64,000 bases of DNA, from the sequence record OR885871; one strand, given 5' to 3'. A program made the position numbers and the translations under genes. The notes below the pieces were generated by a model. It was given only the letters and a program-made list of their open reading frames with translations. It was not told the origin of the DNA and searched no databases. Of this stretch, positions 18,464-18,948 are shown piece after piece; position 1 is the stretch's first letter, and each line of letters starts with the position of its first letter. The stretch is from Escherichia phage vB_EcoM_JN03.

Positions 18464-18495
18464 AACAAAGGGGCATTAAGCCCCTTTGTTTATTT
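18461..18495. terminator. bidirectional terminator between convergent genes
   Basis: CAAAGGGG-CATTAAG-CCCCTTTG hairpin flanked by A-run and T-run. Confidence 0.6.
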
Positions 18496-18948
18496 CCCGT
18501 CCCAGAAATCGTCATCATCGTCTACGTTGTCAAACGCAGAATCCAATTCTTCGTCAGAGTACTCTGGAAGACGACCATTCTGTTTCAGATATTCAATTTC
18601 GTCATCTTCCAATTGAAGATCCGTGGCTATAAACAGCGCCCCTGTTTCTTCATCGTGCTCAATACTGTAAGATGTATATTCAGCACCCTGGACTGTAATG
18701 ATGATAGACGTCGGGTCTTCTGGGTCCACATGGGCTTCAAACGGGATACCGTCAATCGGGGCGTCCTCTAAAAATGTAGCAAGAGCTACGGCGGCGCGGA
18801 CGACGTCTGTCCCTTGTACGGAAGCATAAATCTCTTCAGCGCCTGTTTCCCCGCGCTCAAAGAATTCAATCGTAGTCCCGTCTTGAACACCAGTCCAGAT
18901 AGGCATATCTGCTGGGGAATCAGATTCAAATAATTTAGAAATTGGCAT
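18490..18948 (-). CDS. highly acidic protein (candidate DNA mimic)
   Basis: 152 aa, Asp/Glu-rich throughout, C-terminus NVDDDDDFWDGK. Confidence 0.45.
   Translation of the reverse strand: MPISKLFESDSPADMPIWTGVQDGTTIEFFERGETGAEEIYASVQGTDVVRAAVALATFLEDAPIDGIPFEAHVDPEDPTSIIITVQGAEYTSYSIEHDEETGALFIATDLQLEDDEIEYLKQNGRLPEYSDEELDSAFDNVDDDDDFWDGK

What the first reader, a model, noticed from the sequence alone, without database searches (positions are those of the whole stretch)
18490..18948. Strongly acidic 152-aa protein, possible DNA mimic
The sequence is densely Asp/Glu-rich and ends in DDDDDFWDGK. That composition is typical of phage DNA-mimic anti-restriction or anti-defence proteins such as Ocr-like proteins.
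Basis: inference. Interest (0 to 1): 0.45.

Follow-up and report, generated by a model that had tools for sequence, protein, structure and literature searches.

The report
Hyper-acidic late virion protein of Kuttervirus
The gene is real and encodes one of the most acidic proteins a phage can make, but it is made late and packed into the virus particle (like phage T4's injected "internal proteins") rather than being an early Ocr-type DNA mimic; whether it mimics DNA once inside the host is still untested.

Summary
Window 18490-18948 (minus strand) encodes a 152-aa protein ending in DDDDDFWDGK. It has pI 4.05, 26% Asp+Glu and net charge -34, the most acidic of about 78 genes here and comparable to T7 Ocr.

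The window is a Kuttervirus (Ackermannviridae, ViI/CBA120-like) phage. The protein belongs to a small orphan family confined to Ackermannviridae and always sits at the same locus. Sequence, profile and fold searches link it to neither Ocr, ArdA nor any solved structure. The model is a beta-rich core with disordered ends.

Its context contradicts an Ocr-type early inhibitor:
- It has its own late-promoter-like motif (CTAAATA), shared with tailspike, neck and scaffold genes and conserved in distant relatives.
- Its orthologues are listed in the ViI virion proteome and were detected in LIMEstone1 virions.
- The best-conserved stretch, the disordered N-terminus SKLFE|S, fits a T4 gp21-type prohead-protease site. 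The protease is in the window.
- The upstream ADP-ribosyltransferase carries a T4-like capsid-targeting sequence.

Best reading: a late, head-packaged and probably ejected internal protein. An anti-defence or DNA-mimic role after ejection is possible but unshown. Novelty: new member of a known kind. Interest is moderate.

The parts
18490..18948 (-). CDS of the 152-aa hyper-acidic protein. It is the orthologue of ViI Vi01_184, LIMEstone1 ORF174, CBA120 orf230, AG3 orf227 and kage_199.
   Evidence: ORF and translation. Orthologues and their annotation.
18925..18948 (-). Codons 1-8 (MPISKLFE). This is the proposed short N-terminal propeptide, ending in an L-F-E| prohead-protease site followed by Ser.
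   Evidence: S4, L6 and F7 are invariant and E8 is nearly invariant in 32 sequences down to 32% identity. phiMAM1 and Kevin keep an L-x-E as LFLKE. The AF2 model is low-confidence here. The window's scaffold gp22 starts MKPELQKLFE|G and its major capsid protein has NLGE|S. The cleavage itself is inferred, not shown.
18559..18909 (-). Codons 14-130. This is the predicted folded core (b1-b2-b3-a1-b4-b5-b6-b7-a2), itself strongly acidic with 27 D/E against 4 K/R.
   Evidence: AF2 with a 29-sequence alignment: mean pLDDT 76.6, with 10-residue block means across residues 11-130 of 73-94. Charge count.
18493..18558 (-). Codons 131-152. This is the disordered acidic C-terminal tail with the conserved D-D-[DE]-D-F-W motif.
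   Evidence: pLDDT is below 50 for residues 131-152. D147 and W149 are invariant and F148 nearly invariant.
18977..18987 (-). Late-promoter-like motif CTAAATAGTCC, 39 nt upstream of the ATG of the acidic gene.
   Evidence: The same motif precedes the orthologues in ViI, LIMEstone1, Bue1, phiMAM1 and Kevin. The LIMEstone1 record annotates a 'putative late promoter' at this position.
18956..18960 (-). Shine-Dalgarno sequence GAGGA, 8-12 nt upstream of the ATG.
   Evidence: Read directly from the sequence.
18467..18487 (.). Bidirectional intrinsic-terminator hairpin between the acidic gene and the convergent gene at 18089-18463.
   Evidence: Equivalent hairpins follow the orthologues in ViI, Bue1, phiMAM1 and Kevin and one is annotated in LIMEstone1.
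18984..19433 (-). Upstream co-directional gene, here called ART149, a 149-aa ART-PolyVal-type ADP-ribosyltransferase. Its N-terminus MKTFLEFYRE|S resembles the T4 internal-protein capsid-targeting sequence. It is context for the finding, not an obligate partner.
   Evidence: Pfam PF18760, E 2.2e-10, above the curated cut-off. T4 ipII and ipIII begin MKTYQEFIAE and ipI begins MKTFKEF. The virion annotations are Vi01_183 and LIMEstone1 ORF173. The gene is present in 226 phage records against 277 for the acidic gene.
19456..19466 (-). Exact late-promoter-like motif CTAAATACCCC, 33 nt upstream of the ART149 ATG, followed by a leader hairpin.
19473..20666 (-). PLP-dependent enzyme, the orthologue of ViI gp226 (thymidine hypermodification, 5-NeOmdU). 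It is the conserved neighbour of the acidic gene across the family.
Evidence: Pfam PALP. PMC5889632 lists gp226 as the PLP enzyme. Synteny.
57677..58345 (+). T4 gp21-type prohead serine protease (Peptidase_S77). This is the enzyme proposed to remove the N-terminal propeptide.
   Evidence: Pfam PF03420, E 3.7e-28.

Best explanation
The 152-aa protein is a late-expressed virion protein of Ackermannviridae and is most likely a head-internal ('internal' or ejection) protein of the T4 kind.

Proposed mechanism:
1. It is transcribed late from its own CTAAATA-type promoter, together with the structural genes.
2. It enters the prohead core.
3. The gp21-type prohead protease, encoded in the same window, trims its conserved N-terminal MPISKLFE|S propeptide.
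4. The roughly 144-aa mature polyanion is stored with the DNA and is probably expelled into the cell at infection. Other cargo goes with it, including, in Kuttervirus and Limestonevirus, the neighbouring ADP-ribosyltransferase, which carries a T4-like capsid-targeting sequence.
5. Once inside, the most likely activity is as a pre-made polyanionic decoy. It would occupy DNA-binding host proteins (restriction or other nucleases) before any phage gene is expressed. This is functionally analogous to T4 Ip1-3 or P1 Dar proteins, and in charge terms to Ocr.

What is shown: the gene, its composition, late-type promoter motif, terminator, family distribution, orphan fold, and the virion annotations and mass-spectrometry record of orthologues.

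What is inferred: head-interior location, cleavage at E8, ejection, and any anti-defence or DNA-mimic activity.

My sub-probabilities:
- Genuine late virion protein: about 0.8.
- Head-internal and protease-trimmed: about 0.55.
- Ejected with a host-directed role: about 0.35.
- DNA mimic in the strict sense: about 0.2.
For: (1) Late expression.
- CTAAATAGTCC lies 39 nt upstream of the ATG.
- In the window, CTAAATA lies 28-44 nt upstream of the four tailspike/VriC genes, a neck gene and the scaffold gene.
- In the full kage genome, CTAAATA at 20-60 nt upstream marks 19 ORF starts, mostly annotated structural genes.
- The motif is conserved in front of the orthologues in ViI, LIMEstone1, Bue1, phiMAM1 and Kevin, and the LIMEstone1 record annotates it as a putative late promoter.
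- Homologues of gp55, gp33 and gp45 are present.

(2) Virion association.
- LIMEstone1 ORF174 is a 'confirmed structural protein'. Its reported 12.50% coverage from one peptide equals exactly the 19-mer EETGAEEIYAGVEGTDVVR (19/152).
- Trypsin yields only two MS-sized peptides from this K/R-poor protein, and the other one spans the proposed cleavage site.
- ViI Vi01_184 is annotated 'phage associated protein' while its non-virion neighbours are not. The LIMEstone1 paper states that all 12 of its unknown structural proteins have structural counterparts in ViI.

(3) Protease site.
- SKLF plus L-x-E is the best-conserved block in a region AF2 models with low confidence.
- gp22 starts MKPELQKLFE|G and the major capsid protein has a single L-x-E, NLGE|S, before the Gp23 domain.
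- T4 gp21 cleaves after Glu in short motifs such as L-I-E, and removes 7-65-residue propeptides from proteins retained in the virion (PMC9026906).
- In the window, N-terminal [LIF]xE occurs in 11 of 78 genes. These include gp21, gp22, the gp68-like protein and both genes of this pair.

(4) A T4-like cargo system exists in this phage. The pattern M-K-[TP]-F-x-E-[FY]-x-x-E occurs in exactly 3 genes among 2035 ATG starts of the kage genome. All three lie behind CTAAATA, and two have virion-annotated ViI orthologues.

(5) Retained rather than degraded. The protein has only 2 [LI]xE sites, against 13 in scaffold gp22.

(6) Precedent. T4 Ip1-3 are injected and each inhibits a type IV restriction enzyme (PMC12373910). 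Ackermannviridae DNA is hypermodified, and the gene always sits beside the hypermodification PLP gene.
Against: - No experiment places the protein inside the head, shows cleavage, or shows ejection.
- The LIMEstone1 evidence is a single peptide. That dataset also contains one-peptide hits to non-structural proteins (rIIB, ligase, PhoH, gp44).
- I could not read the ViI proteome paper itself.
- The N-terminus is not a canonical T4 capsid-targeting sequence. It lacks the aromatic residues at positions 4 and 7 that matter for targeting in T4 IPIII, so targeting may rely on something else.
- A net charge of -34 is opposite to the basic T4 internal proteins (pI about 9) and is electrostatically awkward next to packaged DNA.
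- The gene is conserved across the whole family at a fixed locus, whereas T4 internal-protein genes are patchy. That pattern looks more like a core assembly function than an arms-race gene.
- Nothing in sequence or fold ties it to any known anti-defence protein.
Confidence: 0.45

Rival explanations
1. Assembly-only role. The protein is an accessory prohead-core or scaffold-type component that helps build or size the head, or helps exclude or organise DNA. It has no function in the infected cell, and what is found in virions is a remnant.
For: - The N-terminal KLFE is the same as in the gp22 scaffold (MKPELQKLFE).
- Scaffold and core proteins are also very acidic: window gp22 has 22% D/E with a poly-Asp run, and T4 gp67 has 44% D/E.
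- The gene is conserved family-wide at a fixed locus.
- The MS signal is low.
Against: - It is encoded far from the head module, which already has gp67-like (57173-57343), gp68-like, gp21 and gp22 genes.
- It has a compact beta-rich fold rather than a coiled coil.
- It has only 2 potential protease sites against 13 in gp22.
- It evolves faster (45-49% identity between Kuttervirus and Miltonvirus/Nezavisimistyvirus) than the PLP enzyme or the polymerase (65-72%).
Confidence: 0.2
2. Escort, chaperone or inhibitor of co-packaged cargo. A small acidic partner keeps basic or toxic cargo, such as the ADP-ribosyltransferase or basic internal proteins, soluble, inactive or export-competent. This is analogous to type III secretion class I chaperones.
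For: - The best Foldseek PDB matches are three different T3SS class I chaperones: ExsC 3kxy (E 0.03, probability 0.93), ShcA 4g6t and SrcA 3epu.
- Like those chaperones, as I recall them, it is small, acidic and encoded next to an effector-like gene (ART149) in Kuttervirus and Limestonevirus.
Against: - About 50 phage genomes, including AG3, phiMAM1, Kevin and Bue1, keep the acidic gene without the ART.
- T3SS chaperones stay behind in the producing cell, whereas this protein is reported in virions.
Confidence: 0.15
3. The protein is an Ocr- or ArdA-type DNA mimic made in the cytoplasm early in infection to block type I restriction or BREX.
For: Composition only: 26% D/E and 6 K+R, against 29% and 6 for Ocr. 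Ackermannviridae partially resist BREX for reasons not yet known (bioRxiv 10.64898/2026.05.19.726188).
Against: - It has a late-type promoter motif. The sigma-70 consensus scan lists no promoter-like site upstream of the gene, and the number of sites in the region is no more than in shuffles.
- Orthologues are annotated or detected in virions.
- hhalign probability against Ocr is 0.1%.
- There is no PDB sequence or fold match to any DNA mimic.
- The fold is beta-rich.
Confidence: 0.05
4. It is a virion protein but not in the head. It would be a tail or baseplate accessory belonging with the neighbouring Sf6-type needle-knob protein (21518-22036), which is also a virion protein.
For: The cluster contains other virion proteins of probable tail location: knob172, with Pfam Phage_tail_NK at E 5.8e-29, which corresponds to LIMEstone1 ORF169 (3 peptides) and ViI Vi01_179/180. 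Mass spectrometry cannot localise a protein within the particle.
Against: The conserved N-terminal L-x-E site is shared with head-core proteins. Distant relatives keep the acidic gene as its own late transcription unit without an adjacent knob gene.
Confidence: 0.1

Closest known systems
T4 internal proteins Ip1, Ip2 and Ip3 and the packaged ADP-ribosyltransferase Alt (Straboviridae)
   Same: - Late-made, non-essential-looking small proteins encoded away from the head module.
- A short N-terminal propeptide ending in Glu that the gp21 protease removes.
- Stored in the head and injected with the DNA.
- Orphan folds.
- The phage has modified DNA.

The neighbouring ART149 starts MKTFLEFYRE|S, against T4 MKTYQEFIAE|A and MKTFKEF. 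Together with the acidic protein it mirrors the T4 set of 'Alt plus internal proteins'.
   Different: - There is no sequence homology.
- T4 internal proteins are basic (pI 8.9-9.5), whereas this protein has pI about 4.
- Its N-terminus (MPISKLFE) has the cleavage-type L-x-E but not the canonical MKT[YF]xEF targeting signature.
- T4 internal-protein genes are patchy between relatives, whereas this gene is conserved across Ackermannviridae.
- Packaging, cleavage and ejection are not demonstrated here.
T7 Ocr (gp0.3) and other acidic DNA-mimic anti-restriction proteins (ArdA and similar)
   Same: Small size and extreme acidity: 26% against 29% D/E, with 6 K+R each. It could in principle compete with DNA for DNA-binding enzymes.
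   Different: - Ocr is a gene in the T7 early region, and its dimer mimics about 20 bp of bent DNA (PMC7261183).
- This protein is late and virion-associated.
- It shows no profile similarity to Ocr (probability 0.1%).
- It has a beta-rich predicted fold.
- It gives no fold hit to any known mimic.
T4 prohead core proteins gp22, gp67 and gp68
   Same: Acidic, late, and processed by the gp21 protease. The window's own gp22 shares the N-terminal KLFE.
   Different: Core proteins lie in the head gene module, are helical, and are cut at many sites and largely expelled. This protein lies elsewhere, is a compact beta-rich domain, and has only one conserved site.
Type III secretion class I chaperones (ExsC, ShcA, SrcA)
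   Same: About 15 kDa, acidic, with a mixed alpha/beta fold, and encoded next to a delivered effector. These are the top though weak Foldseek matches.
   Different: TM-scores are only 0.30-0.38 and there is no sequence signal. The chaperones are not themselves exported. The acidic gene persists in phages that lack the adjacent ART.

Membership tests
Ocr / acidic DNA-mimic anti-restriction proteins | Sequence or profile similarity to Ocr (or to ArdA, Arn, gp5.9 and similar proteins with solved structures) | tested here: not met
   hhalign of the 29-sequence profile against T7 gp0.3 gives probability 0.1%, E 0.53. phmmer and hmmsearch against all PDB chains give nothing better than E 0.23 and no mimic. 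Pfam, NCBIfam and PADLOC give no hit.
Ocr / acidic DNA-mimic anti-restriction proteins | A fold that displays carboxylates in a B-DNA-like pattern (Ocr is a helical dimer mimicking about 20 bp) | tested here: inconclusive
Ocr / acidic DNA-mimic anti-restriction proteins | Early expression, before the DNA is exposed to restriction | tested here: not met
   It has a late-promoter-like CTAAATA motif of its own, conserved in six genera. The consensus scan lists no sigma-70-like site upstream of the gene. This rests on sequence inference; I have no transcript data.
Ocr / acidic DNA-mimic anti-restriction proteins | Very low pI and a high density of Asp/Glu | tested here: met
   pI 4.05, 26.3% D/E, net charge -34. 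Ocr has 29.1%.
Ocr / acidic DNA-mimic anti-restriction proteins | Binds and inhibits type I R-M, BREX or other DNA-binding enzymes | not testable with these tools
   This needs in vivo plating assays and in vitro binding assays.
T4-type internal (capsid-targeted, injected) proteins | N-terminal capsid-targeting sequence of about 10 residues (T4: MKTYQEFIAE) | tested here: inconclusive
   The acidic protein starts MPISKLFE|S. It has the L-x-E| processing element but lacks aromatic residues at positions 4 and 7. The neighbouring ART149 (MKTFLEFYRE), the 66-aa ORF at 23649-23849 (MKTFGDFLTE) and kage_84 (MKPFIEYFKE) do fit.
T4-type internal (capsid-targeted, injected) proteins | The phage encodes a gp21-type prohead protease that cleaves after Glu | tested here: met
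   Peptidase_S77 at 57677-58345, E 3.7e-28, with gp22 and gp23 homologues alongside. Cleavage specificity is inferred from T4.
T4-type internal (capsid-targeted, injected) proteins | The protein is present in purified virions | tested here: met
   The evidence is from orthologues only. LIMEstone1 ORF174 is a 'confirmed structural protein' with one peptide, 12.5% coverage. ViI Vi01_184 is annotated 'phage associated protein'. I could not access the primary ViI proteome paper.
T4-type internal (capsid-targeted, injected) proteins | Located inside the head and ejected into the host with the DNA | not testable with these tools
   This needs head/tail fractionation, osmotic shock, and detection in infected cells without protein synthesis.
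Prohead core / scaffolding proteins (gp22, gp67, gp68) | Encoded in the head module, helical, with many internal protease sites | tested here: not met
   It is encoded about 39 kb from the head module in the window. It is beta-rich. It has 2 [LI]xE sites against 13 in gp22. There is no similarity to T4 gp67.
Type III secretion class I chaperone fold | Significant structural superposition on CesT/SycE/ExsC-type chaperones | tested here: inconclusive

The most novel reading that the evidence does not exclude
The protein is a pre-packaged, injected polyanionic DNA mimic with a new fold. It would be the first acidic 'internal protein'. It would arrive with the hypermodified (5-NeOmdU) genome and neutralise host nucleases or sensors that attack such DNA (type IV-like enzymes, BREX, RecBCD). 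Alternatively, it would gate the activity of the co-injected ADP-ribosyltransferase. This would explain its fixed linkage to the hypermodification PLP gene across Ackermannviridae.
Probability: 0.15. Interest if true: 0.7.

Novelty: new member of a known kind. Interest (0 to 1): 0.38.

Why it matters
Ackermannviridae (ViI, CBA120, Det7 and LIMEstone-type phages) are widely used for biocontrol, diagnostics and therapy. No source I checked assigns this conserved protein a function. Every database name is 'hypothetical', 'unknown structural' or 'phage associated', and the 2024 family review mentions neither internal proteins nor anti-defence genes.

If the reading here is right, these phages use a T4-like capsid-targeting and protease system to pre-load effectors. 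The cargo would include an ADP-ribosyltransferase, a basic 181-aa protein, a 66-aa protein and this hyper-acidic protein. That gives a concrete list of candidates for the unexplained resistance of these phages to host defences such as BREX. It would also suggest a possible route for packaging foreign proteins into these phages. If the protein is only an assembly accessory, the finding is ordinary.

Tried and rejected
- **Homology to anything known.** Pfam, at both normal and permissive thresholds and on all 32 family members, gave nothing, as did NCBIfam and PADLOC. PHROGs gave only the unknown-function family phrog_3852. PDB sequence and profile searches gave nothing.
- **Remote relatives.** An exhaustive HMM search of 1.84 billion representatives gave only 7 hits, all of the same family. 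Metagenomic contigs showed the same Ackermannviridae synteny. No fused or multidomain versions were found.
- **Fold assignment.**
  - BFVD returned only the protein's own orthologue.
  - Foldseek against PDB gave weak T3SS-chaperone hits, which I keep only as a lead.
  - The afdb50 library was unavailable.
- **'Dedicated antitoxin or partner of the adjacent ART'.** I rejected this as the main role because about 50 genomes keep the acidic gene without the ART.
- **Homology of ART149 to T4 Alt.** Only a short N-terminal motif resemblance exists and BLASTP is not significant.
- **SSB-tail mimicry by the C-terminal DDDFW.** The motif is usually followed by further residues, and the phage's own gp32-like protein has no such tail. 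I did not pursue this.
- **More virion proteomes.** The phiD3, EspM4VN, AG3 and PP35 papers are too shallow or contain no proteome. The ViI proteome paper is not in the library.
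Full report
**1. The observation**

The ORF listing and the raw sequence show an ATG-initiated ORF at 18490..18948 on the minus strand. It is 152 aa and ends ...NVDDDDDFWDGK.
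- Computed values are pI 4.05, 16.8 kDa, 40 Asp+Glu (26.3%), 6 Lys+Arg and net charge about -34.
- Among 78 non-overlapping gene calls in the window it is the most acidic by both measures. The z-score is +3.2 for D+E fraction and -3.8 for net charge per residue.
- The gene is real. tblastn finds it in 277 phage genomes. It has a GAGGA ribosome-binding site and is followed by a bidirectional terminator hairpin at 18467-18487.

**2. Where the window comes from**

The 5 kb around the gene is 98.5% identical to Salmonella phage kage, Escherichia phage LPEK22 and many other Kuttervirus genomes (Ackermannviridae; ViI, CBA120, Det7, SFP10). The window also carries a T4-type morphogenesis block:
- portal;
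- a gp21-type prohead protease (Peptidase_S77, 57677-58345);
- gp22 scaffold;
- gp23 major capsid protein;
- sheath, tube, neck and terminase genes;
- four tailspike genes.

**3. The family**

No Pfam, NCBIfam or PADLOC model matches, and PHROGs gives only the unknown-function family 3852.
- The word-indexed search found 27 clusters at 66% identity or higher.
- An exhaustive profile search of 1.84 billion representatives found only 7.
- The most distant members are 32-48% identical. They come from Erwinia phage Bue1, Serratia phages phiMAM1 and Kevin, and metagenomic contigs, and all show the same Ackermannviridae synteny.
- All members are stand-alone proteins of 146-155 aa with pI about 4 and 24-28% D/E. 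I saw no fusions.
- Every source calls the protein hypothetical, 'unknown/putative structural protein' or 'phage associated protein'.

**4. Structure**

AlphaFold2 with a 29-sequence alignment gives mean pLDDT 76.6. Ten-residue block means across residues 11-130 are 73-94.
- The core of about 117 residues has the order b1-b2-b3-a1-b4-b5-b6-b7-a2.
- The N-terminus (residues 1-13) and the C-terminal tail (131-152) are modelled with low confidence.
- BFVD returns only the protein's own orthologue.
- Foldseek against PDB has nothing at E <= 1e-3. Its best hits are type III secretion class I chaperones at TM 0.30-0.38: ExsC (E 0.03, probability 0.93), ShcA and SrcA.
- A profile-profile comparison with T7 Ocr gives probability 0.1%.

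The protein is therefore not a member of the Ocr family or of any other structurally known DNA-mimic family. Its fold is effectively orphan.

**5. Expression signals**

Thirty-nine nucleotides upstream of the ATG lies CTAAATAGTCC. An exact CTAAATACCCC lies 33 nt upstream of the preceding gene.
- In the window the same heptamer sits 28-44 nt upstream of the tailspike/VriC genes (31216, 34612, 36658, 41630), a neck gene (48136) and the scaffold gene (58392).
- The longer motif occurs 13 times against 3.1 expected, and no shuffle out of 100 reaches that count.
- Across the whole kage genome, CTAAATA 20-60 nt upstream of an ATG marks 19 ORF starts, mostly annotated structural genes (annotation).
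- The motif is conserved in front of the orthologues in ViI, LIMEstone1, Bue1, phiMAM1 and Kevin, each of which is followed by a terminator hairpin.
- The LIMEstone1 GenBank record annotates a 'putative late promoter' before ORF173 and ORF174 and a terminator after ORF174.
- The motif resembles the T4 late promoter TATAAATA, and the phages encode gp55, gp33 and gp45 homologues (PMC3121705).

I conclude, by inference from sequence, that the gene is a late transcription unit of its own. That is the opposite of Ocr, which is encoded in the T7 early region (PMC7261183).

**6. Virion association**

The LIMEstone1 paper lists ORF173 (17.33 kDa) and ORF174 (16.62 kDa) among 39 virion proteins found by ESI-MS/MS. 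It states that all 12 unknown structural proteins have structural counterparts in ViI (PMC3296691).
- Translating the record confirms that ORF174 is the acidic orthologue (152 aa, 16.62 kDa).
- A trypsin digest of ORF174 gives only four fragments, of 5, 27, 19 and 101 aa.
- The reported 12.50% coverage from one peptide is exactly the 19-mer EETGAEEIYAGVEGTDVVR.
- The only other MS-sized peptide spans the cleavage site proposed below.
- The single peptide is therefore what this K/R-poor protein can give, not a sign of trace contamination. It is still thin evidence, and the same dataset has one-peptide hits to rIIB, ligase, PhoH and gp44.
- In the ViI record the orthologue Vi01_184 and the upstream Vi01_183 are 'phage associated protein', while neighbouring genes are 'putative uncharacterised protein'.
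- The CBA120 paper explains that 41 particle-associated ViI proteins were identified by proteomics (PMC3184105).
- I could not obtain the ViI proteome paper itself.

**7. The N-terminus**

In the alignment of 32 sequences, S4, L6 and F7 are invariant and E8 is nearly invariant. phiMAM1 and Kevin keep an L-x-E as LFLKE. The following residues are variable and contain indels, and AF2 models the stretch with low confidence.
- T4 gp21 cleaves after Glu in short motifs such as L-I-E. It removes 7-65-residue N-terminal propeptides from proteins that stay in the head (Alt, gp23, internal proteins). The 10-residue propeptide of IPIII is the capsid-targeting sequence (PMC9026906; PMC3012670).
- Translating T4 gives ipII and ipIII MKTYQEFIAE..., ipI MKTFKEF... 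and Alt MELITELFDE....
- In the window, gp22 begins MKPELQKLFE|G. The major capsid protein has a single L-x-E (NLGE|S) just before the Gp23 domain. The protease begins MMKLLRE and the gp68-like protein MMEITE.
- The acidic protein begins MPISKLFE|S.
- The upstream 149-aa protein, here called ART149, begins MKTFLEFYRE|S. In LIMEstone1 it begins MKTFLQYLQE|S, with a perfect L-x-E at positions 8-10 as in T4 IPIII.
- A regular expression for the T4-like signature (M-K-[TP]-F-x-E-[FY]-x-x-E) matches exactly three genes among 2035 ATG-initiated ORFs of the kage genome. They are ART149, kage_84 (181 aa, pI 8.6, ViI orthologue 'phage associated') and kage_206 (66 aa, window 23649-23849). All three lie behind CTAAATA.
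- This phage family therefore appears to have a T4-like cargo-loading system.
- The acidic protein carries the processing element but not the canonical targeting signature, so its route into the head is less certain than that of its neighbour.
- It has only two [LI]xE sites, one of them conserved, against 13 in the scaffold. That fits a protein that is trimmed and kept rather than degraded.

**8. Neighbourhood**

Upstream and co-directional are:
- ART149 (Pfam ART-PolyVal, E 2.2e-10, above the curated cut-off; DUF3990);
- a 236-aa protein of unknown function;
- an Sf6-type needle-knob protein.

The ART is present in 226 phage records against 277 for the acidic gene. It is absent between the PLP or p236 gene and the acidic gene in AG3, Bue1, phiMAM1 and Kevin. 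The acidic protein is therefore not a dedicated partner of the ART. Its linkage to the PLP/p236 cluster and to the convergent terminator is conserved. It diverges faster (45-49% identity to Miltonvirus and Nezavisimistyvirus) than the PLP enzyme or the polymerase (65-72%), and more slowly than p236 (27-31%).

**9. Interpretation**

The best-supported account is a late-made, virion-packaged, probably head-internal protein whose N-terminal octapeptide is removed by the prohead protease. By analogy with T4 Alt and Ip1-3, it is expelled with the DNA.
- What it does next is inference. A folded polyanion with 27 D/E against 4 K/R in its core, plus an 11-carboxylate disordered tail ending in the conserved DFW, is well suited to occupy DNA-binding sites of host enzymes at the moment of entry.
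- T4 Ip1-3 set the precedent that injected proteins of phages with modified DNA inhibit restriction enzymes (PMC12373910).
- Why Ackermannviridae partly escape BREX is still open (bioRxiv 10.64898/2026.05.19.726188).
- Strict DNA mimicry, meaning phosphate-like spacing of carboxylates on a rigid surface, could not be examined.
- Family-wide conservation at a fixed locus and the scaffold-like KLFE N-terminus keep an assembly-only role alive.
- The weak T3SS-chaperone resemblance keeps a cargo-escort role alive.
- An early cytoplasmic Ocr-type inhibitor is the least likely reading.

**10. Comparison and novelty**

The protein works most like, but is not homologous to, the T4 internal proteins and Alt cargo. 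It resembles Ocr in charge only. The protein itself is already catalogued as an 'unknown structural protein'. The new points here are:
- the late promoter;
- the protease-site and capsid-targeting logic shared with three neighbouring or distant cargo candidates;
- the explicit exclusion of Ocr-family membership.

I rate it a new member of a known kind (phage internal/ejected proteins) with an orphan fold, of moderate interest. It would be more interesting if an injected acidic DNA mimic were demonstrated.

Noticed in passing
window 18984-19433 (-): A 149-aa ART-PolyVal/DUF3990-type ADP-ribosyltransferase (Pfam E 2.2e-10). Its N-terminus MKTFLEFYRE|S closely resembles the T4 internal-protein capsid-targeting sequence (MKTYQEFIAE, MKTFKEF). 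It lies behind an exact late motif, and its orthologues are annotated as virion proteins in ViI and LIMEstone1. This looks like a small functional analogue of the packaged T4 Alt enzyme. By eye it has YHGS...GFYLT...EEMVVF motifs suggestive of an H-Y-E-type ART; I did not test that.
   Followed up: partly
window 23649-23849 (-): A 66-aa ORF among the tRNA genes starts MMKTFGDFLTE|W, a T4-like capsid-targeting sequence with L-x-E at positions 8-10 counted from the second Met. CTAAATAAACC lies 37 nt upstream. It is probably another small internal protein. T4 ipI likewise lies next to the tRNA cluster. Outside the window, kage_84 (181 aa, pI 8.6, MKPFIEYFKE|Q; MT074476 74825-75370) is a third candidate, and its ViI orthologue is 'phage associated'.
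   Followed up: partly
window 19425-19466 (-), 31172-31224 (+), 34572-34620 (+), 36630-36666 (+); L006:3950-4000; L005:3959-4009: The late motif CTAAATACCCC is followed by a strong leader hairpin. In it AUACCCC(A) pairs with (U)GGGGUAU placed 3-6 nt before the start codon. MFE is -17 to -20 kcal/mol, z is -4.4 to -5.6, and 0 of 200 shuffles fold as well. The hairpin occurs before the ART149 gene, three tailspike genes, and the acidic-gene orthologues of phiMAM1 and Bue1. It covers the place where a Shine-Dalgarno would be, which suggests mRNA stabilisation or translational control of late genes. The window's own acidic gene lacks it (z +0.45) and has an ordinary GAGGA.
   Followed up: partly
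window 19473-20666 (-) and 20736-21446 (-): The PLP-dependent enzyme is the orthologue of ViI gp226 (5-NeOmdU thymidine hypermodification). It, a fast-evolving 236-aa protein (weak NDUS4-like Pfam hit, N-terminus MRNV conserved) and the acidic gene stay together across Ackermannviridae genera, although their order changes. The reason for this linkage is unknown.
   Followed up: partly
window 57173-57343 (+) and 57352-57669 (+): Two small genes lie between the portal and the prohead protease. One encodes a 56-aa, pI 4.1 protein behind a CTAAATA motif. The other encodes a 105-aa, pI 11.4 protein starting MMEITE|I. They occupy the positions of T4 genes 67 and 68 and are likely prohead-core proteins.
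   Followed up: no
L003 (FQ312032) 6338-6793: The ViI orthologue Vi01_184 matches the family except for residues about 41-63, which read as unrelated sequence (MHRYRARMCPRCR-SPCNVLRRR in the alignment). This suggests compensating frameshift errors in that record rather than real divergence.
   Followed up: no
window 57677-58345 (+), C-terminus: In a scan of the kage genome for acidic-aromatic C-terminal motifs, the only protein besides the acidic one was the prohead protease (…VEDDFLRRLDAALNHLG against …DDEDDFWDGK). This is possibly a coincidence and possibly a shared core-interaction motif.
   Followed up: no
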